From Escherichia phage vB_Eco_mar004NP2, in the sequence record OR896837.1: a stretch of DNA of 64,000 nucleotides; one strand, given 5' to 3'. Below are positions 3,183-40,989 of the stretch, one piece after another (position 1 is the stretch's first letter; every line of letters starts with the position of its first letter). Under the pieces are notes generated by a model. That model saw nothing but the letters and a program-made list of their open reading frames with translations, searched no databases and was not told where the DNA came from. A program made the translations under genes and the position numbers.

Positions 3183-3620
3183 TTAATGAAGTTGTTTACC
3201 ACTTCTTAACATAGTGGCCGTTTCCATAAGACCTAGCGTAGCATCACGCTTATTGATCTGTTTACCAAGTTCATCAGTACGTTTACCGATGTAAGCATTA
3301 ATAGCCATATTCATAGCTGTAGCGAGATCTTCTTTGGTTATCTCTTCATCGTCTAAAGCTAATTTAGCCAAAGAATCAAATGTGCTAGAGAGTCCTATAA
3401 GATCTGAGGTTTCTCCAGCCAAAATAGGATTAATATTATCTACTGTTACTTCTAGCATGGAGTTGACAATATCTTCACCGTCTATTAGACCAGTTTCAAT
3501 ATTACTCTCCCACTCCTTCATCTGCTCCAATAATGGATTTTTCTTTTCTGTCATGGTAGAGGTTTCCTGTGTCAGTCGGTAAGAAGGATGATTGCGTTTT
3601 AGGTGGATGTTGCTTAGCAA
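3183..3620 (-). CDS. hypothetical acidic protein
   Basis: ORF; real start probably internal (MTEKKNPLL...). Confidence 0.4.
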   Translation of the reverse strand: MLSNIHLKRNHPSYRLTQETSTMTEKKNPLLEQMKEWESNIETGLIDGEDIVNSMLEVTVDNINPILAGETSDLIGLSSTFDSLAKLALDDEEITKEDLATAMNMAINAYIGKRTDELGKQINKRDATLGLMETATMLRSGKQLH

Positions 3621-3963
3621 TCCAGTTAAGAATCAGCACGCGACTAGGGACAATATCGGTGTTGTACCAGAAATCATGAACCCATTGACGAGCATCCTCA
3701 AACTTACCAAATTTATACGCTTTCTTAAACAATTCAAACCCAAAACAATCTGGTGTGAAGTCTACTTCACGATACTGAATTACTTTAGAACCAGTTAGGT
3801 CTTGGATTGCTGCATTAATTTCTGTATGTGAGAATTTTGTTTCGTGAAACTTATTAAAGAATCGGTAGTTGAAGCGTCCGTTCGTTTCGACAAACAACTG
3901 GATGAAGAGATCGTTAAATTGGCTATCAAACCAGTAATTCTGTAGTTGTTGTAGTGCTGTCAT
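3502..3963 (-). CDS. hypothetical protein (153 aa)
   Basis: ORF. Confidence 0.45.
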   Translation of the reverse strand: MTALQQLQNYWFDSQFNDLFIQLFVETNGRFNYRFFNKFHETKFSHTEINAAIQDLTGSKVIQYREVDFTPDCFGFELFKKAYKFGKFEDARQWVHDFWYNTDIVPSRVLILNWIAKQHPPKTQSSFLPTDTGNLYHDRKEKSIIGADEGVGE

Positions 3964-4160
3964 TTACTAACTCCGTTAATTGCCACGATGATGCCTTCGT
4001 ACATAAAAGGAAGTAGCCCAGAAGTGTAGAAGATATTTTCCGTTATTCCTAGATGTCGAAAAAGTATATTAAATAATGCTGTTAGAAATACAATCTGAGG
4101 CAGTAATACAAAATACTCAGTTACAATCTTTGGTGCCTGATAAACAAGACGTTTTACCAT
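3960..4160 (-). CDS. small hydrophobic protein (66 aa)
   Basis: Hydrophobic segments; start/stop coupling. Confidence 0.3.
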   Translation of the reverse strand: MVKRLVYQAPKIVTEYFVLLPQIVFLTALFNILFRHLGITENIFYTSGLLPFMYEGIIVAINGVSK

Positions 4161-4259
4161 TGTTTTTAAGTCTCCTTATTACTTTGGCCTGCTCCACAAT
4201 AATGAAAACTGCGAGCACTAATAGTGCTATTAGCCCCGCAGTAATTGGTACTAAATCAA

Positions 4260-4586
4260 TCATGGGAGACGCCATACATAATTAGCTGTCTGTAGAGTCT
4301 TAGCGGTATCATCATGGTACATTACTACAGACTTTGGTGAATAGCTATCAGCTAGTTCTTTACGAATCATTTCACACTCTTCACCAGTATCAATATTTTT
4401 AACTATCACTTTCATATTAAGTGGTGTTAATACAGAAAGTGGTTTCCAAGAATCCTCAATTTCAATTCCTACCTTTTTCTCGATTAACATGAGAACTTCT
4501 AGCGTGTCATCTGGAATGCTAATATTATTATTCACAAACTGTAGTATCTCATGTAAGGTATTTAATTCATTAAAATTAAGCTTCAT
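4260..4586 (-). CDS. hypothetical protein (108 aa)
   Basis: ORF. Confidence 0.4.
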   Translation of the reverse strand: MKLNFNELNTLHEILQFVNNNISIPDDTLEVLMLIEKKVGIEIEDSWKPLSVLTPLNMKVIVKNIDTGEECEMIRKELADSYSPKSVVMYHDDTAKTLQTANYVWRLP

Positions 4587-32702: not shown

Positions 32703-32731
32703 TTGACATCTGCCCTCGAATGAGTTATAAT
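32703..32731 (+). promoter_or_regulatory. consensus sigma70 promoter for nrdD
   Basis: TTGACA, 17-bp spacer, TATAAT, then GGAGAG RBS and ATG at 32761. Confidence 0.65.
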
Positions 32732-32760: not shown

Positions 32761-34635
32761 ATGAATCGCAATGAAGAACTAAAGTATAAAGAAATGCAGG
32801 CGTTAATTAGAAACTGCAAAGAGATTATCGAAGGGTCAGCAGATGAAGAGCTGCTGTTTAATAATGCCAATAAACCCTCAGAACGTTTCCCTACACAAAG
32901 GGATATGCTTGCAGGTGAATTGAGTAAGTATCTGATTCTAGAAGAAATGCCAATTCAGATTCGAAATGCTCATATGATTGGGGATATTCATTTCCATGAT
33001 GCTGATTATGCTGCATTAGGCATGACTAACTGTTGCCTGGTAGCTCTGGAAGATATGTTGAAGAATGGTATGAAGGTTGGTAATGCTGAAATTAGCACTC
33101 CAAACTCTATCACTACTGCGGCGGCTATCACTGCTCAGATTATCACTCAAGTTAGCTCCCATCAGTATGGTGGTACTTCTGTAGATCGCCTTGATGAAGT
33201 ATTAGCACCTTATGTTCGTAAATCCTATGACAAAAATCATGCGTTTGCAAAACGTTGGACTAAGGATGAAGCCAAAGCATCCGTAATGGCTACGGAGATG
33301 ACTGAAAAAGAAGTCTATGACGCTTGTCAGGGTTTAGAATATGAAATCAATACCATGTTCAACTCTAATGGTCAGAGTCCGTTTATTACCTTTGGTTTTG
33401 GTCTAGGAACTTCTTGGGAAGCACGTCTAGTACAGAAAGCAATACTGAAAGTACGCATGGATGGTTTAGGTATCAATAAGCGTACAGCTATCTTCCCGAA
33501 ACTGGTATTTGTACTCCGTGATGGCGTTAACATGAAACCAGGAGATGTTAATTATGACATCAAGAAGTTAGCTATGAAATGTACTGCTGAACGTATGTAT
33601 CCAGATTATATCAGCTATGATAAGGTTGTGGAAGTTACTGGAGACTATAAAGTTTCTATGGGCTGCCGTTCATTCCTAGCTGCTACAGAAGATGGTGAAA
33701 CTGCCGGTCGTAATAACTTAGGTGTTGTTTCTGTAAACTTGCCTAGAATTGCTATCGAAGCTGAAGGAAATATTGACCTATTCTTTGATTTGCTTGAGCT
33801 ACGTGTGGATACAGCGTTAAAAGCATTGGAGTGGAGAGTTGATCGCTTAAAATACATCCAAGCTAAAGCTGCGCCCATCCTCTATATGTCAGGAGCCTTT
33901 GGACTGCGCTTGGAGCCTGATGAATATGTATTCGATCATTTCTATAACCGTGCTTCTGTATCTCTAGGGTATATTGGTTGCCATGAAATGCTACAGTTCA
34001 TGTTTGGCAAAGATGTAGACACAATGTCCGAGACCTGCATCAAGTTTGTTCAGCGTGTATTGCAGTACATGCGGGATAGAGTCGATCAGAAGAAGGAAGA
34101 AACTAAGTTAGGTTATAGCCTGTATGCTACACCATCAGAATCCCTATGTGACCGTTTTTGTCGTCTAGACCGCGAATATTTCCCGGAGCATGAAGATATT
34201 CTGTCTAAAGGATACTACACTAACTCGCACCACCTTGATGTAGAACGTAAGGTTGCTCCCAATGTGAAATTTGATTATGAATCTAACTTTACGCCTATTG
34301 CTTCTGGTGGGTGCATTTCCTATGTAGAACTACCAGATATGAAACGATTCCCAGATGCACTGGAATGGGTTATTAATTATGCTGCTAGTAAAGTTCATTA
34401 CTTCGGTATTAATACTCCAGTGGATTCTTGCGGTAAATGTGGATTCTTAGGTGAAACAGTAGCATCCGAAGATGGGTTTAAGTGCCCTATCTGTGGTAAT
34501 CATGATCCCGAAACTCTTGAAGTAACTCGCCGAGTTTGTGGGTATCTTGGAAATCCAGGTGCTCGTCCATTTAACCCTGGTAAACAGCACGAGGTTATGG
34601 GCAGGGTGAAACATCAGGATATTCGAGCTAAATAA
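32761..34635 (+). CDS. nrdD: anaerobic ribonucleoside-triphosphate reductase
   Basis: C-terminal glycyl-radical motif RVCGYLGNP; Zn-ribbon cysteines CGKCG...CPICG. Confidence 0.9.
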   Translation: MNRNEELKYKEMQALIRNCKEIIEGSADEELLFNNANKPSERFPTQRDMLAGELSKYLILEEMPIQIRNAHMIGDIHFHDADYAALGMTNCCLVALEDMLKNGMKVGNAEISTPNSITTAAAITAQIITQVSSHQYGGTSVDRLDEVLAPYVRKSYDKNHAFAKRWTKDEAKASVMATEMTEKEVYDACQGLEYEINTMFNSNGQSPFITFGFGLGTSWEARLVQKAILKVRMDGLGINKRTAIFPKLVFVLRDGVNMKPGDVNYDIKKLAMKCTAERMYPDYISYDKVVEVTGDYKVSMGCRSFLAATEDGETAGRNNLGVVSVNLPRIAIEAEGNIDLFFDLLELRVDTALKALEWRVDRLKYIQAKAAPILYMSGAFGLRLEPDEYVFDHFYNRASVSLGYIGCHEMLQFMFGKDVDTMSETCIKFVQRVLQYMRDRVDQKKEETKLGYSLYATPSESLCDRFCRLDREYFPEHEDILSKGYYTNSHHLDVERKVAPNVKFDYESNFTPIASGGCISYVELPDMKRFPDALEWVINYAASKVHYFGINTPVDSCGKCGFLGETVASEDGFKCPICGNHDPETLEVTRRVCGYLGNPGARPFNPGKQHEVMGRVKHQDIRAK

Positions 34636-34642
34636 GCTAATC

Positions 34643-34679
34643 AGCCGGGTTGCTAGTCGACCTGGCTTTTATTTTATTT
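34643..34679 (+). terminator. rho-independent terminator after nrdD
   Basis: GC hairpin (AGCCGGG...CCTGGCT) followed by TTTTATTTTATTT. Confidence 0.5.
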
Positions 34680-34706
34680 GCTTTCAGCCAAAAATTTATG
34701 TATAAT
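34678..34706 (+). promoter_or_regulatory. sigma70-like promoter
   Basis: TTGCTT, 17 bp, TATAAT, followed by the conserved ATAAATTTGAGAGGAG leader. Confidence 0.55.
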
Positions 34707-35147: not shown

Positions 35148-35337
35148 GGGTTTAAATGCCGCTTTGGAAAACGCATTAATGCAGCATTGGGAAACTGGCT
35201 ATAAGGATGGTGTTGAATCCTGCGCTAATATGCTAGAAGTTATTGCTAATACCTTAATGGAGAAAGGCAATAAAGAATTAGCTGAGCTATTAGACAGTAT
35301 TGGGCAAAACTTCAGAGAACAGGTGGAAAATGCGTAG
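35116..35337 (+). CDS. hypothetical protein (73 aa)
   Basis: ORF. Confidence 0.4.
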   Translation: MAFSKPMLPDKGLNAALENALMQHWETGYKDGVESCANMLEVIANTLMEKGNKELAELLDSIGQNFREQVENA

Positions 35338-36148
35338 ATTAATTATTATTAGCGGTGCGGGTTTGAGTGTTGAAAGTGGTGTACGAGCTTTTCGTACTGA
35401 TACTGCTAGTGGTAAAGCACTGTGGGATGATTATGATCTAGAAGAAGTATGTAATATTCATGCCTTTCGTAGTAATTTTTACCATAAAACCCATATGTTT
35501 TACAACAAACGTCGTGAAGAGCTAAAAACTGTTGAACCCAATCTTGCACATTTGCGTATTGGTGAATGGTATAAACAATATCCAGGTCAGGTAGTAAACT
35601 TGACTACCAACGTTGATGACCTTATTGAGCGTGCTGGCGTTCCACATAGTGACATTCTGCACATTCACGGATATTTAAAAGAGGTTATTGTAGCTGATAG
35701 CTACAATAGTAGCAATAAACGGATTATTGATGTAGGGTACAATTCTATTGATCCAGATGATTATAAATGGGTTAAACCTAATGTAATCTTCTTTGGGGAG
35801 CATGCTCCAGCGTATGCAGAAATGTACAATATTTTTGATGGTATTACCAGTCAAGATATGATCATTGTGGTTGGTTGCTCTAACCAAGTAATTAACTTCT
35901 ACTGGGAATTATTTCCTGTTCTTAATTTGACTGCTGCGAAACTTATGGTTGTTAACTACTATGATAGTGCCCTCGCAGCGGAACCGGGCTATCAAGGTAT
36001 GACTCGTAGTGAGATGTACCAGCTGGAAGAACGTGGTATCCCTTACTGGAGTAAAGGTGCGGTAGATGCTTTCAACGACCCTGATTTTATTGCTCGTGTA
36101 GAAGCCCATTTAGAGGGTAGACCTTATGTGTCGAGAAGCAAGAAATAA
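35330..36148 (+). CDS. Sir2-family (sirtuin-like) NAD-binding protein
   Basis: GAGLSVESGVRAFR, NVDDLIERAG, HIHG, FFGE motifs; no Zn-binding Cys tetrad visible; start set at ATG 35330. Confidence 0.65.
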   Translation: MRRLIIISGAGLSVESGVRAFRTDTASGKALWDDYDLEEVCNIHAFRSNFYHKTHMFYNKRREELKTVEPNLAHLRIGEWYKQYPGQVVNLTTNVDDLIERAGVPHSDILHIHGYLKEVIVADSYNSSNKRIIDVGYNSIDPDDYKWVKPNVIFFGEHAPAYAEMYNIFDGITSQDMIIVVGCSNQVINFYWELFPVLNLTAAKLMVVNYYDSALAAEPGYQGMTRSEMYQLEERGIPYWSKGAVDAFNDPDFIARVEAHLEGRPYVSRSKK

Positions 36149-36240
36149 TGAATGGGATATTTTTATAGCTTAGTCTGGCACTTGGTGTTATATATATGTT
36201 GATACGGTTGAGTATGATACGTTCTTAGAAAGGAACAAAA

Positions 36241-36747
36241 ATGGAAATAAGTAATACTCCAATTATTTTTCTAGACATTGATGGGGTGCTCAATTCGAGC
36301 ATCTCCCATCATCATGCACCTGATAATGAAAAGATTTTCTTTGGAAGTGACTGGGTTTTCAAACCGCTTCTCAAGGCTTTTCAGGATTTTATTCGTCCTT
36401 CTCCGATAATGATTGTTGGAGTATCCTCATGGTTCTCTGTTAGGAATGAGATGGAGAACGTTCAGATTATGACCGGATTAGGTCTTATCGATCGTTTTCT
36501 TGGTACAACTGATTTTACTGGGGGTGGGCTATCTAGAGGTAATTCTGTTCTCCGTTTCGTTGAAAAGCATAAGCTCAAACATTGGTGTGTGCTTGATGAT
36601 GCTGGTGCTACGATGTATCAGTATCCAACGGTTATAGTCAACGGTAGGACTGGGATAAATCTTCAAGATTTAAAAGCTGTTAGCTATATGCTAGAATTTA
36701 GCCCAGATATTGAAATGTGTAAATCCTTACAACAATTTAAGGTGTAA
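36241..36747 (+). CDS. HAD-superfamily phosphatase (nucleotidase-like)
   Basis: N-terminal FLDIDGVLN (DxDG) motif. Confidence 0.55.
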   Translation: MEISNTPIIFLDIDGVLNSSISHHHAPDNEKIFFGSDWVFKPLLKAFQDFIRPSPIMIVGVSSWFSVRNEMENVQIMTGLGLIDRFLGTTDFTGGGLSRGNSVLRFVEKHKLKHWCVLDDAGATMYQYPTVIVNGRTGINLQDLKAVSYMLEFSPDIEMCKSLQQFKV

Positions 36748-36749
36748 AT

Positions 36750-37178
36750 ATGTTCAATAATGTATTCTCTAAAGAAGCTAACCCAATTTTGGTTAACTTT
36801 TGGCGTACTCTCCCAGCTAGCCTGTATAATGAGGCTATTAACTCTTTGAAAATATGGTGTGAGAATAACGAAATCTCCTTTGCTTTTAAGGATGATATTG
36901 ATGAGGCCCCCTGTATTGGTTTAATTGTGCAGGTAGAGGATGGTCTTGAAGAGATTGTGGGCTGGAAAGAGTTAGACGAAATGGGCTTAGTTTTTGCGTT
37001 AAACTATAAGCTGTTTATGCCTGCTAAGCATCGCCTAGTTGTTAACTATAAAACTAGTGAATCTCCTGGTTTTCAGGTTAATGAACGTTATGGTTGGTCT
37101 TACTCACCGGAAGAAGTGAATGAGGGGATTCAGAAACTTCGCCGTTTCGGGTATATGATCCCAGGTTTAACTGCTTAA
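36750..37178 (+). CDS. hypothetical protein, paralog A of tandem pair
   Basis: Shares SF(A/T)F...(D/P)C.G...W.EL..MGL...LN..LF...PGL with the next ORF. Confidence 0.5.
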   Translation: MFNNVFSKEANPILVNFWRTLPASLYNEAINSLKIWCENNEISFAFKDDIDEAPCIGLIVQVEDGLEEIVGWKELDEMGLVFALNYKLFMPAKHRLVVNYKTSESPGFQVNERYGWSYSPEEVNEGIQKLRRFGYMIPGLTA

Positions 37179-37187
37179 GGAGGCAGA

Positions 37188-37580
37188 ATGGAACAAGTAT
37201 ATTGGCGTCAGATTGATCCTAGTTTGGTGAAGCGTGCTGAGAAGCTGCTACAACGTTGGTTGGGGGTAAAGCAAGCCTCCTTCACTTTTCCAGAGCAGCA
37301 AATAGATGATCCCTGCACTGGCGTTTTCCTGTCTGGATATGCCGGGGAATGGGAGATGGACTGGAATGAATTGTCCTCTATGGGTTTAATTGTTTCCCTA
37401 AATTTCTCTTTGTTCCATCCACGTGGTTTTGCCATATGTCGTGTGCCTGATGACGGTTGTTCGCCCCATCTTTTACAGGTGAAAGATGATATTTGGGAGT
37501 ACACTCCAGATATTCTCAAAGAAGCTAAAGAACAATTAAACCGTGTTGGGATTTATGTTCCAGGCCTAAATGATGAATGA
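37188..37580 (+). CDS. hypothetical protein, paralog B of tandem pair
   Basis: Similarity to preceding ORF. Confidence 0.5.
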   Translation: MEQVYWRQIDPSLVKRAEKLLQRWLGVKQASFTFPEQQIDDPCTGVFLSGYAGEWEMDWNELSSMGLIVSLNFSLFHPRGFAICRVPDDGCSPHLLQVKDDIWEYTPDILKEAKEQLNRVGIYVPGLNDE

Positions 37581-37671
37581 TTTTTACTAGCTGAACTCTG
37601 ATTACCGAGTCATTTTGGCTCGGTTTTCTCTGTACTCAAAGACACTGATAGCACCTTTGGGAAAAATTTAC

Positions 37672-37700
37672 TTGCACGGTGCTCAAAATCTTGATATAAT
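37672..37700 (+). promoter_or_regulatory. sigma70-like promoter at start of a 0.6-kb non-coding region
   Basis: TTGCAC, 17 bp, TATAAT. Confidence 0.55.
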
Positions 37701-38199
37701 ATTTATATTGAATTGAGAGACATTAGTAAAAATTGATTTTGCTAATTTTTCTTGTTTACAATCCGCGATACGGAACAGTTAGGCTGCCCCATTAAGGGTT
37801 GTTTTAACTGTTACGTGTTAGTTTTTAAACAAATAGTTAATAGAATACTTAGCGATCTGCGTCCCGTAGGAACCCTGGTAAGGCCTCGAAGCAACCTAGA
37901 TAGAGGTGGTTGTGAAGTGAGACGGGAGGAGTGAAAAACTCCGAGACGTGATTCTGTAAGTTATATTGCATCTAGTATGAGCTAGTATATGAAGCATTAG
38001 GTGAGCAAATCTGGCTTAGCGGCCATCCTCAAGGATTTGTGCGGTATAGCAAAGCAGCAGCGCAGCGTGAAAGTGGAAGTTGCCACCCCACTTCAGTATT
38101 TGCGATTAATTTGTTGAGAAATTGACAGTAACAGTTGTTCTATTCTTTCTGAATAGTCCTAAAGAAAACTTATTTCATTTCCAACACAGGAGTATTGTT

Positions 38200-40989
38200 G
38201 TGTTTTCAATCCTACAAGGTCATGCAGGATTTCATCGCGATTTAGCCACAGGCAATTGGCGAGAAGTTAAAGCAGAAGATTATCTTTTTGCTAAAAGATT
38301 TTCCTCAAAGCATCCTGAAGGTAAACCAGCTTCAATGCCCTTCAAGTTTGATGTAATTGACGAAGTTGATCCTCAAACCCTAGTAGAAATGCTTCCTCTT
38401 ATGAGACGTTTAACGTCTGACCCTCATATCGTTGCGGTACGAGGTCGATGTCTTGCACCTAAAAATAATGTGCGGCGTAAGAATGGCAACTTTAATGTAT
38501 CTAACCCAAGTCATATAATTGCAATGGATGTGGATGGTATTGTAGATACAGGTGGTTGTAACAAGTTTGATCTTGTTGGCATGGCTCGACATATTATTAG
38601 AATGTTAAATAGTATTAGTGAGGATATGTTTCCTCTTGATGCAGGGTTTATCGCTCATGCATCGTCTTCGGCTGGGCTAAAACCAGGTATCCGAATGCAC
38701 TTAATACTAGAATCTAATGTTAAAGTAACTCAGGGTCAAATCAAATTCTTATTTACATCTATCAACGAAAGTAGTAGACAAAAGTATGGCTTTGATATTG
38801 CCGACTTAGCTTATTACTCTTCCGTACAGCTCCATTATTTTGCAGATCCGTTATTTACCGATGGTATAGTAGATCCGTTTAAAGAGGAGGGTGCTTCACG
38901 TCTGGTATTTGTTAAGGGTTCTAAAGTAAATTTACCCAATAATCTGGTTGACTATGAAACAACTAGAGGTGAGTTTAAAGAAGAGTTCTACTCTTTACTA
39001 GACCAAATTAAGGGTAAAAAAGCTGCCTCTGATAAAGTAGAAGAAACCATCAGCGAACTAGAAGAAGCTGAGGATGGAGTGTATCTACGTATTATTCCTA
39101 AACTCTATCACAGGGCTTTAGAGGATGGTGTTGATTTTGCATGGCTAGAAAAAGAAATCCGTCCAGCCTTATCAGAATATATTGCAACTAAAGATAATAG
39201 TCGTAATATTCAAGACTACTTTAATAATGGTCGTAAACAGGCTCTAAAAGCATTTGTTAATAATTCTAAACGTTATATACCGGATGTTTTAAAAGGTATT
39301 CCACTCAAAAAGCTAGAAACTAACTCTTTAGAGACTGATAACTTCTTGAAATTAAATACTGTGCCACCAGAAGGTTATATGACTTTTGTAAAAGCGAGTC
39401 TAGGTACAGGTAAAACTACAGCGGTTGTGCGTTGGTTAGATTCAGGAGTTATTAAAGGTAATTTCTTAGCAATTACCAATACTCGAGCACTGGTATCTTC
39501 CAATGCTAAGAAATTTAGTGCAGGACAATATGATAAGTCTGTAGATATGCTTAATTTTAAGCGTGGTGCTATTGACCGTATGTCCACAACTATTCACTCT
39601 TTGCATAAGTTCAAGAGTTTTATTGGTCAAATTGATGCAATCTTTATCGATGAATGTGATGCAGTAATGAACGACCTATTATTCGCCCCGGTTGTTAAAC
39701 AACGTCGTGAATGTATTCAGGTTCTTCGGGATATTCTTGCAACTGCAAAAATCATTATATTATCAGATGGTGATATTAGTGCAGAAACAATTGAAGCATA
39801 TGGTTCTTTGATCGAGTTTGATAAACCGGTTGCATTTTATAATCATCACCGTAAAATGCTGTCAAAAGCTCATGCTTATGAGTTTCCTGATGAATCCAGT
39901 ATTTGGGTTGCACTTCAGACTTCTCTAGAGATGGGTGAGAAATCTATTCTGGTATCTGATTGTGGCCCTGATGAGCTGAATGAGAAGGGTATGGCATTAC
40001 GTCGTAATACGGGTGCGTTAGTTAAGGAAATCCACTCAAATTCTACGTCTGATGTGGATATTAGACGTATTCTGGATTACACAACTAATGAGCTGATTGA
40101 TCAACAAATTGATTGCTTATTATGTAGTCCATCCGTAACGAGTGGAGTTGACTTCAACTATTTTGATAACGTATTCGTTATTACTAGAACCAGTAACCAA
40201 GCGCCAAACATGCGTTTTCAAGCAATCAGGCGCGACCGTGGTGCTCAGAATATCTATTATTTTATTGATAAATCTACGAGTGGATTCTCTGCAGGTTCTG
40301 AACAATATAATATTGATGAGGGCTGGCTGGAGTTAGCACAGCAATTATATGCACGTCGTAGAGAGCTGGAATCTAGAAATTATACTAGTACTTTACGTTA
40401 TTACTTGCTTGATCAGGGTGCAACTATTGATATTTTCAGCGAAAGCTGGGGAACTATTGAAGGTGCAGGGAAAGAATATATGGAAGAGCGAATCAAAGCT
40501 ATTCTACATTCAACTCCTGATTATTGTGCTCCACGTCATGCGGATGCGTATGAAGCTAAACTACTTCTTGTTCGCTATTATCATCTTGAGTCTATTAAAG
40601 ATGTAACAGTTGAGCATGTTGAACAATATATCAAGGATAAACCTAATGATCGAGCGGCATTCTTCCATAAAATGCACGAGATGTTTTGGGAAGATATTAA
40701 GAAGTGTTCAAACGTCACTATCAAACCATTCATAGAAGCTCTGAAAGGTAAGAAGAAGGACTTCTTCCTTAAAACAGGTCAGAGTGCTAACCCAAAATAT
40801 GCTAGAATGTATCTTGGTATGATGGGTATTGGTAAGGATATGAACACTGAAAATATTGTAGACTGGTACAGAACCTATTGTAAAATCGAGTGTATGCCAA
40901 TTCCTTATAAGTTTATGACTGATGAGGAGAAACATATGCATGATGAAGCAATGGCAGAGCTAGGTGCTAGAAATGACAGTGAAGAATAA
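38200..40989 (+). CDS. replication initiation / origin-binding-type protein with P-loop NTPase domain
   Basis: Walker A SLGTGKTT and Walker B IFIDECD in a 929-aa protein at the head of the replication module; start set at GTG 38200 after ACAGGAG RBS. Confidence 0.5.
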   Translation: MFSILQGHAGFHRDLATGNWREVKAEDYLFAKRFSSKHPEGKPASMPFKFDVIDEVDPQTLVEMLPLMRRLTSDPHIVAVRGRCLAPKNNVRRKNGNFNVSNPSHIIAMDVDGIVDTGGCNKFDLVGMARHIIRMLNSISEDMFPLDAGFIAHASSSAGLKPGIRMHLILESNVKVTQGQIKFLFTSINESSRQKYGFDIADLAYYSSVQLHYFADPLFTDGIVDPFKEEGASRLVFVKGSKVNLPNNLVDYETTRGEFKEEFYSLLDQIKGKKAASDKVEETISELEEAEDGVYLRIIPKLYHRALEDGVDFAWLEKEIRPALSEYIATKDNSRNIQDYFNNGRKQALKAFVNNSKRYIPDVLKGIPLKKLETNSLETDNFLKLNTVPPEGYMTFVKASLGTGKTTAVVRWLDSGVIKGNFLAITNTRALVSSNAKKFSAGQYDKSVDMLNFKRGAIDRMSTTIHSLHKFKSFIGQIDAIFIDECDAVMNDLLFAPVVKQRRECIQVLRDILATAKIIILSDGDISAETIEAYGSLIEFDKPVAFYNHHRKMLSKAHAYEFPDESSIWVALQTSLEMGEKSILVSDCGPDELNEKGMALRRNTGALVKEIHSNSTSDVDIRRILDYTTNELIDQQIDCLLCSPSVTSGVDFNYFDNVFVITRTSNQAPNMRFQAIRRDRGAQNIYYFIDKSTSGFSAGSEQYNIDEGWLELAQQLYARRRELESRNYTSTLRYYLLDQGATIDIFSESWGTIEGAGKEYMEERIKAILHSTPDYCAPRHADAYEAKLLLVRYYHLESIKDVTVEHVEQYIKDKPNDRAAFFHKMHEMFWEDIKKCSNVTIKPFIEALKGKKKDFFLKTGQSANPKYARMYLGMMGIGKDMNTENIVDWYRTYCKIECMPIPYKFMTDEEKHMHDEAMAELGARNDSEE

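What the first reader, a model, noticed from the sequence alone, without database searches (positions are those of the whole stretch)
36750..37580. Tandem duplicated small genes
Two adjacent ORFs (142 and 130 aa) share a block pattern (SFxF, conserved Cys-x-Gly, W..EL..MGL, LN..LF, C-terminal PGL), which indicates a local duplication followed by divergence. Duplicated accessory genes in phages are often host-interaction factors.
Basis: seen in the sequence. Interest (0 to 1): 0.4.

Follow-up and report, generated by a model that had tools for sequence, protein, structure and literature searches.

The report
Old paralog pair of DUF7415 genes
Two neighbouring small genes of this T5-like phage are true but ancient duplicates from a widespread, uncharacterised phage protein family (DUF7415); one copy keeps the family's conserved motif, the other has lost most of it, and their function is still unknown.

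Summary
ORF A (36750-37178, 142 aa) and ORF B (37188-37580, 130 aa) are real paralogs: 31% identity over 124 aa, E=2e-19, 27 SD above shuffles. The window is a Tequintavirus, and the genes are the orthologs of T5.106 and T5.107.

The duplication is old. Both copies are present in almost all of 525 T5-like genomes. Klebsiella Sugarlandvirus has recognisable A-type and B-type orthologs. Some other Demerecviridae have a single copy.

Both proteins belong to Pfam DUF7415 (PHROG 2502). Their C-terminal half is a roughly 50-aa module (DWNELS..GLI.RIN.EILHPLGLA..R.P.TG.S) found alone in P2-like, T4-like and other phages, or fused to nucleotide and nucleic-acid enzymes. B keeps 11 of 14 family-invariant residues and A keeps 5 of 14, yet both are under purifying selection. 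They end an early operon (CobB-like Sir2, HAD phosphatase, A, B, terminator).

The mechanism is inferred only: acidic, probably hetero-oligomeric binding proteins tied to nucleotide or nucleic-acid metabolism. This is an ordinary, already catalogued family of unknown function, of modest interest.

The parts
36750..37178 (+). ORF A, 142 aa, ortholog of T5.106. This is the A-type DUF7415 paralog, with a degenerate core motif (5 of 14 family-invariant residues kept; the motif His is Met90).
   Evidence: dN/dS is 0.06-0.09.
37188..37580 (+). ORF B, 130 aa, ortholog of T5.107. This is the B-type DUF7415 paralog, with the canonical core motif (11 of 14 invariants). It has a hypervariable stretch with indels at about residues 31-58.
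   Evidence: dN/dS is 0.13-0.25.
36963..37103 (+). C-half core module of A (about residues 72-118: WKELDEMGLVFALNYKLFMPAKHR...GWSY). It is homologous to the stand-alone DUF7415 module.
   Evidence: A single-domain HMM scores it 27 bits, E 8e-9.
37359..37502 (+). C-half core module of B (about residues 58-105: DWNELSSMGLIVSLNFSLFHPRGFAICR...IWEY). This is the canonical DUF7415 module.
   Evidence: The single-domain HMM scores it 62.8 bits, E 6e-20. It also matches phrog_3954 at E 5e-18.
36739..36744 (+). Shine-Dalgarno sequence (AAGGTG) of ORF A. The HAD gene's stop codon (36745-36747) lies 2 nt before A's ATG, so the two genes are tightly coupled.
   Evidence: Read from the sequence.
37177..37183 (+). 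Shine-Dalgarno sequence (AAGGAGG) of ORF B, overlapping A's stop codon.
   Evidence: Read from the sequence.
37604..37631 (+). Intrinsic terminator (9-bp stem, then TTTTCTCT) that ends the operon 24 nt after B.
   Evidence: T5 annotates a terminator at the equivalent place.
36241..36747 (+). Upstream co-transcribed gene for a HAD_SAK_2 phosphatase-like protein (T5.105 ortholog). This is context, not part of the pair.
35330..36148 (+). Upstream co-transcribed CobB-like Sir2 gene (T5.102 ortholog). It is the most constant neighbour of the DUF7415 gene or genes across Demerecviridae.
34678..34706 (+). Probable operon promoter (TTGCTT, 17 nt spacer, TATAAT), just after the nrdD terminator at 34643-34667.
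   Evidence: Read from the sequence. T5 annotates a promoter at the equivalent place. The automatic scan did not flag it.

Best explanation
SHOWN. A and B are ancient tandem paralogs of the DUF7415 family and correspond to T5.106 and T5.107. Each protein is a compact, acidic alpha/beta protein of about 130-140 aa. Its C-terminal half is the family's roughly 50-aa core module: a Trp turn, a helix, then a beta-hairpin. Its N-terminal half has a similar order of secondary-structure elements but no independently detectable homology to the core. B keeps the ancestral conserved polar residues (Asn, His-Pro, Arg, Ser). A has replaced most of them but is under even stronger purifying selection. Both genes sit at the end of one early transcription unit: promoter, three small ORFs, a CobB-like Sir2, a HAD phosphatase, A, B, then a terminator. 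This unit lies directly downstream of nrdD.

INFERRED. The two proteins most likely work together as a hetero-oligomer. B would supply the ancestral binding site and A would be a specialised, site-degenerate partner. The DUF7415 module would be a protein-docking or binding module, not a nucleic-acid binder. It would attach to a conserved partner in nucleotide or nucleic-acid transactions, or modulate it. In T5-like phages it would act alongside the Sir2 encoded just upstream. The partner and the biochemical effect are unknown.
For: Paralogy. Age and co-occurrence of the pair. Single-copy relatives.

Asymmetric divergence: an HMM built only from stand-alone modules scores B's C-half at 62.8 bits, A's at 27 bits, and the Sugarlandvirus A-type at 4.7 bits, not significant. 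Family invariants kept are 11/14 for B and 5/14 for A. Pfam fails to recognise the A-type in two divergent contigs but does recognise the B-type.

Both genes are functional: dN/dS is 0.06-0.09 for A and 0.13-0.25 for B. Co-transcription and coupling. Stop and start codons of Sir2, A and B overlap in L099 and L100, and Sir2's last base is the single copy's first base in Slocum.

Link to nucleotide and nucleic-acid metabolism, by fusion: the module is fused to dATP/dGTP pyrophosphohydrolase, thymidylate kinase, DUF3850/ASCH, DUF551, an XRE HTH domain and an Rv2179c-like 3'-5' exoribonuclease. By position: it lies between nrdD and nrdG, overlapping both, in Klebsiella phage JD18. It lies two genes downstream of a Nudix hydrolase gene in Matisse. 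It lies directly after rnlA in the td-nrdA.1-denA-rnlA cluster of Aeh1. In Demerecviridae with nrdD the operon lies downstream of that gene.

Acidity argues for protein binding rather than DNA or RNA binding: pI is 4.2-4.9 and net charge is -7 to -15, and 79% of 99 stand-alone members have pI below 5.5. The fold model is confident: pLDDT 87, pTM 0.81.
Against: No experiment or direct computation shows that A and B interact, because no multimer prediction was available. Nothing shows that either protein binds any partner.

The stand-alone module also sits in places with no nucleotide-metabolism genes. Examples are after gene A, or between gpL and gpX by my reading of the neighbour clusters, in P2-like prophages, and inside long arrays of tiny unknown ORFs. 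The neighbourhood signal may therefore only reflect where accessory genes collect in early regions.

The strictly conserved polar residues (Asn, His, Arg, Ser) would suit a small-molecule site or an active site just as well. The Sir2 linkage is confined to Demerecviridae. There is no literature on the family.
Confidence: 0.4

Rival explanations
1. DUF7415 is a small-molecule binder, either a 'sponge' or a small oligomeric enzyme, for a nucleotide-derived compound such as an immune signal, NAD/ADP-ribose derivative or dNTP. B would be the active copy and A a non-binding structural subunit.
For: The core is extremely conserved, with invariant polar residues N, H, R and S across hosts from Enterobacteria to Vibrio, Pseudomonas-type prophages and a Bacteroidales MAG. 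Family members are stand-alone proteins of 65-90 aa in accessory positions, as known sponges are. In T5-like phages the neighbours are Sir2 (an NAD user) and a HAD phosphatase, and in Matisse a Nudix hydrolase lies two genes upstream. Fusions to dNTP pyrophosphohydrolase and thymidylate kinase exist.
Confidence: 0.2
2. A and B are dedicated partners of the phage CobB-like sirtuin, acting as regulators, substrate adaptors or substrates. Sir2, A and B would then form one three-part host-modifying module.
For: The order Sir2 then DUF7415 gene(s) is kept in every Demerecviridae lineage examined: T5, Sugarlandvirus, Slocum, DU_PP_V and two metagenomic contigs. Stop and start codons overlap in several of them. 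The Sir2 is a CobB-type deacylase homolog.
Against: In Markadamsvirinae other genes lie between Sir2 and A: a HAD gene in this window, and two more small ORFs in T5 and DaisyDussoix. Stand-alone DUF7415 genes in T4-like and P2-like phages have no Sir2 nearby in the stretches fetched. Conserved synteny within one virus family can simply be inherited.
Confidence: 0.2
3. DUF7415 is only a generic oligomerisation (dimerisation) domain. A and B would be scaffold proteins without a specific target.
For: The module is fused promiscuously, at the C- or N-terminus, to unrelated enzymes and to an XRE HTH domain, which is the classic repressor architecture of HTH plus a dimerisation domain. The two-lobed fold of A and B could mimic a homodimer of the single module.
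Against: Hundreds of stand-alone 65-90 aa versions would then have no function. Invariant surface-type polar residues (N, H, R, S) are not typical of a pure dimer interface. The internal-repeat idea is not independently supported.
Confidence: 0.1
4. The database labels are right, and the proteins are an exonuclease and/or a tail tube protein.
For: Some GenBank records call the A-type 'exonuclease (ACLAME 70)' and the B-type 'tail tube protein'.
Against: Neither protein matches a nuclease or tail family in Pfam, PHROGs or NCBIfam. The genes lie in the early replication and nucleotide-metabolism region, not the structural module. The 'exonuclease' label is plausibly inherited from prophage proteins in which an Rv2179c-like 3'-5' exoribonuclease domain is fused to a DUF7415 module. 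A and B contain only the DUF7415 part.
Confidence: 0.02

Closest known systems
Pfam PF24187 (DUF7415) / PHROG 2502; phage T5 genes T5.106 and T5.107
   Same: The window's A and B are 92-93% identical to T5.106 and T5.107 and 99-100% identical to proteins of other sequenced Tequintaviruses. Both score far above the Pfam threshold.
   Different: Nothing differs in kind; these are the same genes. What no searched record or paper states is the A/B paralogy, the asymmetric loss of the core motif in A, and the module's fusion partners.
Stand-alone DUF7415 proteins (phrog_3954, phrog_33705, phrog_1812) of P2-like, T4-like and other phages and prophages
   Same: They share the roughly 50-aa core, DWNELS..GLI.RIN.EILHPLGLA..R.P.TG.S.G.LV..DG.WEY. 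B's C-half matches it at 62.8 bits.
   Different: They are single-module proteins of 65-90 aa. A and B carry an extra N-terminal lobe and a C-terminal helix ending in PGL. In A the core is degenerate.
T7 gp1.2 and other small acidic early phage proteins that bind and inhibit a host enzyme. This is an analogy from general knowledge, not tested.
   Same: They are small, acidic, early-expressed, non-essential-looking proteins encoded among nucleotide-metabolism genes.
   Different: No sequence or fold relationship was detected, and no target is known for DUF7415.
Nucleotide-signal sponges Tad1, Tad2 and Acb2. This is an analogy from general knowledge.
   Same: They are small, widespread, stand-alone phage accessory proteins with a strongly conserved pocket-like motif.

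Membership tests
Pfam PF24187 DUF7415 | Whole-protein score above the curated gathering threshold (27 bits) | tested here: met
   A scores 120.8 bits and B scores 108.2 bits.
Pfam PF24187 DUF7415 | The family's conserved core residues are present (14 invariant columns in an alignment of 22 stand-alone modules: N4, G10, L11, I15, N16, H21, P22, G24, L25, A26, R29, G34, S36, G45) | tested here: inconclusive
   B keeps 11 of 14 and A only 5 of 14, having lost N4, H21, G24, L25, A26, R29 and G34 among others. An HMM of stand-alone modules still detects A's C-half at E 8e-9. A is therefore a divergent member.
Pfam PF24187 DUF7415 | Two DUF7415 repeats per protein, implied by Pfam matching its 53-position model to both halves | tested here: inconclusive
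   Pfam matches the N halves (69.5 and 60 bits) and the C halves (55 and 51 bits) separately. Independent tests find nothing. N vs C Smith-Waterman gives z 0.4-1.6. hhalign gives 19% probability and aligns different elements. A clean stand-alone-module HMM gives E>0.9 on all 21 N halves. A Foldseek search with the N-half model finds only the N half of a B-type protein. Only the order of secondary-structure elements is alike.
PHROG 2502 | Full-length match to the family profile | tested here: met
   E is 1.3e-62 for A (residues 11-142) and 9.9e-60 for B (residues 1-129).
Exonuclease (label in some GenBank records) | A recognisable nuclease domain, such as DnaQ-like or Rv2179c-like | tested here: not met
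   Pfam, PHROGs and NCBIfam show no nuclease family. The Rv2179c-like domain occurs only in fusion proteins of other phages.
Tail tube protein (label in some GenBank records) | Match to a tail tube family, location in the structural module, and presence in virions | tested here: not met
   No tail family matches. The genes lie in the early operon between nrdD/Sir2 and the origin-binding helicase gene. Virion presence is not testable here.
Known nucleotide-signal sponges (Tad1, Tad2, Acb2) | Fold similarity to a solved member | tested here: not met

The most novel reading that the evidence does not exclude
DUF7415 could be a new, structurally unprecedented class of phage effector module that targets one highly conserved bacterial component of nucleotide or nucleic-acid metabolism or of nucleotide-based immunity. 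In that case the T5 pair would be an obligate heterodimer of an active subunit (B) and a pseudo-subunit (A), working with the phage sirtuin as a three-part host-takeover or anti-defence module.
Probability: 0.15. Interest if true: 0.65.

Novelty: already known. Interest (0 to 1): 0.3.

Why it matters
As it stands the finding is ordinary. The genes are the well-conserved T5.106 and T5.107 hypothetical proteins, and their family is already catalogued as a domain of unknown function.

The follow-up does leave a usable lead. It defines a short, very strongly conserved module with no solved structural relative. The module is spread over T5-like, T4-like, P2-like and other phages and prophages, mostly of Gammaproteobacteria. 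It is repeatedly fused to, or wedged between, nucleotide and nucleic-acid enzymes. In T5 it comes as a canonical copy plus a degenerate copy, which suggests an active subunit paired with a pseudo-subunit.

T5 is genetically tractable, so deleting these two genes is a cheap way to assign a function to a family with hundreds of members. A practical by-product is correcting the 'exonuclease', 'tail tube protein' and, for the HAD gene, 'Sir2' labels that are spreading through phage annotations.

Tried and rejected
1. Internal duplication within each protein. Pfam matches both halves, but four independent tests failed to confirm it: Smith-Waterman against shuffles, hhalign, a clean single-module HMM, and a Foldseek search with an N-half model. 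My first single-module HMM seemed to hit the N halves. That was contamination by N-terminal fragments of T5-like proteins, and it disappeared after cleaning.

3. Defence-system membership. PADLOC had no hit for A, B, a stand-alone module, a fusion protein, Sir2 or HAD.

4. Literature. Searches for DUF7415, PF24187, T5.106/T5.107, the PHROG numbers, and T5 with Sir2 and early genes found nothing relevant. The phiR2-01 proteogenomics paper (PMC8624392) does not mention the orthologs.

5. A systematic neighbour census in 80 viral contigs. It was dominated by P2-like prophages, and my crude ORF caller produced spurious long ORFs in high-GC DNA. I read the recurring neighbour clusters as capsid, terminase, head-completion, tail and lysis genes, from their sequences and positions only. 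No functional partner emerged.

6. Hidden RNA or iteron features in the operon and the downstream intergenic region. Rfam found none, and only short repeats typical of chance or of promoters appeared.

7. P2 Orf91, named in a T5 annotation note as similar to T5.106. In P2 itself it is annotated as a DUF3850 domain protein, and no DUF7415 is annotated in that stretch. The similarity probably comes through DUF3850-DUF7415 fusions in other P2-like phages.

8. The first attempt at search for related loci, with the broad alignment A2, failed for lack of a conserved stretch. A core-only alignment worked.

Full report
**What the window is.**
The region 36000-38200 is 99.7% identical to Escherichia phage vB_Eco_mar004NP2 and to other members of Tequintavirus (Demerecviridae, Markadamsvirinae). 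It has 525 matching phage records. The two ORFs of the finding are the orthologs of T5.106 and T5.107 in phage T5.

**Checking the observation.**
- ORF A (36750-37178, 142 aa) and ORF B (37188-37580, 130 aa) exist as described, on the + strand.
- A starts 2 nt after the stop codon of the upstream gene, behind AAGGTG. B starts 9 nt after A's stop codon, behind AAGGAGG (sequence).
- BLASTP of A against B gives 31% identity and 47% positives over 124 residues with a single gap, E=2e-19.
- The Smith-Waterman score is 158, against 28.0 +/- 4.8 for 2000 shuffles of B (maximum 56), so z=27. The N halves (z=11.7) and C halves (z=19.8) are each significant alone.
- No nucleotide-level similarity remains.
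- Profile searches of the six-frame translation of the whole window find exactly these two copies.
- Both proteins are under purifying selection in comparisons of the window, T5 and DaisyDussoix. dN/dS is 0.06-0.09 for A and 0.13-0.25 for B, similar to the neighbouring HAD and Sir2 genes.

**Family.**
Both proteins score far above threshold on Pfam PF24187, DUF7415 (120.8 and 108.2 bits; threshold 27), and on phrog_2502. NCBIfam, PADLOC and the PDB sequence library give nothing.

An AlphaFold2 model of A, built on 21 A-type and B-type sequences, is confident: pLDDT 87, pTM 0.81, with only residues 1-12 disordered. Its elements in order are:
- helix 23-36;
- strands 43-46, 55-62 and 66-70;
- helices 72-77 and 80-92;
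- strands 94-99 and 104-110;
- helix 120-132.

**Age of the duplication.**
- A tblastn search with A finds 1037 places in 525 phage records, about two per record.
- In Klebsiella phage KpGranit (Sugarlandvirus) two adjacent genes follow Sir2. The first scores 75 bits against A and 27 against B. The second scores 78 against B and 50 against A.
- Two divergent metagenomic Demerecviridae contigs have the order nrdD, Sir2, A-type, B-type, origin-binding protein (plus one or two small unannotated ORFs), with overlapping stop and start codons. In both contigs Pfam recognises only the B-type.
- Pectobacterium phage DU_PP_V (Mccorquodalevirinae) has a single B-like copy. Two small hydrophobic ORFs sit where A would be.
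- Serratia phages Slocum and Kamaji have a single copy. In Slocum it is abutted to Sir2.
- A metagenomic protein, P0049, is intermediate: it scores 100 bits to A and 84 to B.

So the duplication is old and lies within Demerecviridae. It is not a recent local event.

**Asymmetric divergence.**
A full HMMER search of 1.84 billion representative proteins with an A+B profile found 157 families' worth of relatives at E<=1e-3. Most matched only profile positions about 55-110, the C-terminal half. These relatives are proteins of 60-110 aa with a strikingly conserved core: [IV][DN]WNE.S..GL[IL].RIN.EI[LM]HP[LI]GLA..R.P.TG.S.G.LV..DG.WEY.

I built an HMM only from stand-alone modules, cleaned of T5-like fragments. 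It gave these scores:

| Target | Score |
|---|---|
| B's C-half | 62.8 bits |
| A's C-half | 27.0 bits |
| C-half of the Sugarlandvirus A-type | 4.7 bits (not significant) |
| All 21 N-terminal halves tested | E>0.9 |

Of the 14 invariant core columns, B keeps 11 and A keeps 5. A has lost the Asn, the His of the His-Pro pair, the Gly-Leu-Ala run, the Arg and a Gly.

Within Markadamsvirinae, however, A is the more constrained protein. B has a hypervariable stretch with indels at about residues 31-58, the hairpin of the N-terminal lobe. This pattern fits a B that retains the ancestral site. A would have changed quickly after the duplication and was then fixed in a new, constrained role.

**Is each protein itself an internal repeat?**
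Pfam's 53-position model matches both halves of both proteins, also when the halves are scanned separately. I could not reproduce this independently.
- N against C Smith-Waterman scores are at chance level (z 0.4-1.6).
- hhalign of N-half against C-half profiles gives 19% probability. It pairs the first helix with the last one.
- The clean stand-alone-module HMM does not see the N halves.
- A Foldseek search with a separate model of the N half (pLDDT 83) retrieves only the N half of a B-type protein and no stand-alone module.

Only the order of elements is alike: a Trp turn, a helix, then a hairpin, with invariant Trp18, Trp72 and Trp116. This point is left open.

**Genomic setting in the window.**
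The layout runs as follows:
- a perfect sigma-70 promoter at 32703-32731 drives nrdD (32761-34635), which ends in a terminator at 34643-34667;
- directly after it lies TTGCTT, 17 nt, TATAAT (34678-34706), where the T5 record annotates a promoter;
- then come three small ORFs;
- then a CobB-like Sir2, whose best PDB match is E. coli CobB 1s5p at E 1e-17;
- then a HAD_SAK_2 phosphatase-like protein;
- then A and B;
- then a terminator at 37604-37624;
- about 600 bp further on, after promoter-like sites, the origin-binding helicase gene begins.

Calling the operon 'early' rests on its position among T5's replication and nucleotide-metabolism genes and on the host-type promoters in the T5 record. 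That is an inference.

**Contexts and fusions of the module elsewhere.**
- Klebsiella phage JD18 (T4-like): the 72-aa gene lies between nrdD and nrdG and overlaps both.
- Matisse: the gene lies two genes downstream of a Nudix hydrolase gene.
- Aeromonas phage Aeh1: the gene directly follows rnlA in the td, HAD homolog, nrdA.1, denA, rnlA cluster.
- P2-like prophages: the gene follows replication gene A. This is the position of P2 Orf91, which in P2 itself is annotated only as a DUF3850 protein. In other P2-like prophages I read the recurring neighbours as head-completion gene L and tail gene X, from their sequences alone.
- Other contigs: it is one of a long run of tiny unknown ORFs.
- Fusion partners are dATP/dGTP pyrophosphohydrolase, thymidylate kinase, DUF3850/ASCH, DUF551, an XRE HTH domain, PGDYG and a ClpX-type zinc finger. 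In five viral contigs the partner is an Rv2179c-like 3'-5' exoribonuclease.
- Hosts are mostly Gammaproteobacteria, plus a Bacteroidales MAG and partial matches in Betaproteobacteria.
- All members examined are acidic. A has pI 4.7 and charge -7. B has pI 4.7 and charge -8. Relatives go down to pI 4.2. Among 99 stand-alone members, 79% have pI below 5.5.

**Interpretation.**
Shown:
- the genes are an old paralog pair of the DUF7415 family;
- they are two-lobed acidic alpha/beta proteins with no detected solved structural relative;
- B is canonical and A is motif-degenerate;
- both are constrained;
- they are co-transcribed with a sirtuin and a HAD phosphatase.

Inferred:
- The two copies always occur together, are translationally coupled and have diverged asymmetrically. 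I therefore think A and B act together, probably as a hetero-oligomer of a canonical and a degenerate subunit.
- The module is repeatedly fused to, or placed among, enzymes acting on nucleotides and nucleic acids, yet it is strongly acidic. I therefore favour a protein-docking or binding role towards a conserved component of nucleotide or nucleic-acid metabolism over direct nucleic-acid binding.

This is guilt by association, and my confidence in that part is low.

Rivals:
- a small-molecule sponge or small enzyme, favoured by the invariant polar residues;
- a dedicated partner of the phage sirtuin, favoured by the Sir2 synteny, which is however confined to Demerecviridae;
- a generic oligomerisation domain.

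The GenBank labels 'exonuclease' and 'tail tube protein' are not supported by any profile. The 'exonuclease' label is plausibly a transfer from exoribonuclease-DUF7415 fusion proteins.

**Novelty and verdict.**
The genes and their family are already catalogued: T5.106/T5.107, Pfam DUF7415 and PHROG 2502. No paper in the searched library discusses them. The finding is real but ordinary. The host-interaction idea remains untested. What remains of interest is a widespread, very conserved, structurally unassigned phage module that could be studied easily in T5.

Noticed in passing
window 36241-36747: The gene upstream of A is a HAD_SAK_2 phosphatase-like protein by Pfam (E 7e-20). RefSeq and PHROG-derived annotation (phrog_18062) call it 'Sir2 (NAD-dependent deacetylase)' in mar004NP2, in T5 (T5.105) and apparently in many other records that list Sir2 twice. 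This looks like a propagated mis-annotation.
   Followed up: partly
window 35330-36148: The phage Sir2 is a CobB-type sirtuin (best PDB hit E. coli CobB 1s5p; NCBIfam deacylase models score below their cut-offs). It has only two cysteines and no CxxC...CxxC zinc module after the catalytic HG motif. It is the most constant neighbour of DUF7415 genes across Demerecviridae.
   Followed up: partly
L012 (Klebsiella phage JD18) 4001-4219: A 72-aa stand-alone DUF7415 gene is wedged between nrdD and nrdG and overlaps both reading frames. This suggests translational coupling with the anaerobic ribonucleotide reductase genes.
   Followed up: partly
L087, L090, L091, L093, L094 (IMG/VR contigs), about 3400-4310: Prophage proteins of about 296-340 aa fuse an Rv2179c-like 3'-5' exoribonuclease domain (checked by Pfam on L087, E 2e-61; the other four share the N-terminal sequence) to a C-terminal DUF7415 module. 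This probably explains why some T5-like DUF7415 proteins are labelled 'exonuclease (ACLAME 70)'.
   Followed up: yes
window 37278-37361 (B residues about 31-58): The N-lobe hairpin of B-type proteins is hypervariable among T5-like phages. Mean column entropy is about 1.2 bits and insertions reach 7 residues. The same region of A has no indels.
   Followed up: partly
window 37581-38197: A non-coding gap of about 600 bp lies between B and the origin-binding helicase gene. It holds the operon terminator and promoter-like sites: TTGCAC-17-TATAAT at about 37674-37702 (read by eye) and TTGATT-18-TACAAT at 37733-37762. Each follows a similar A-rich 17-mer. No Rfam match and no convincing iterons were found.
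   Followed up: partly
window 38122-40989: The mechanical ORF for the origin-binding helicase starts at a TTG at 38122 (955 aa). The annotated start in the near-identical phage corresponds to about window 38198, so the first 25 or so residues of the listed ORF are probably not translated.
   Followed up: no
L015 (Pectobacterium phage DU_PP_V) 2862-3343: Where T5-like phages have the A-type gene, DU_PP_V has two small ORFs (55 and 83 aa) that look hydrophobic and membrane-spanning by eye. They show no significant similarity to DUF7415.
   Followed up: partly
L009-L011 and L101-L102 (P2-like prophage contigs); L103 (phage P2) 3817-4146: The slot just after replication gene A in P2-like phages holds different small genes. 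P2 has DUF3850 alone (Orf91). One P2-like coliphage appears to have a DUF3850-DUF7415 fusion. Others have DUF3283 plus DUF7415, or a 161-aa DUF7415 protein. This links DUF7415 with the ASCH-like DUF3850 domain.
   Followed up: partly
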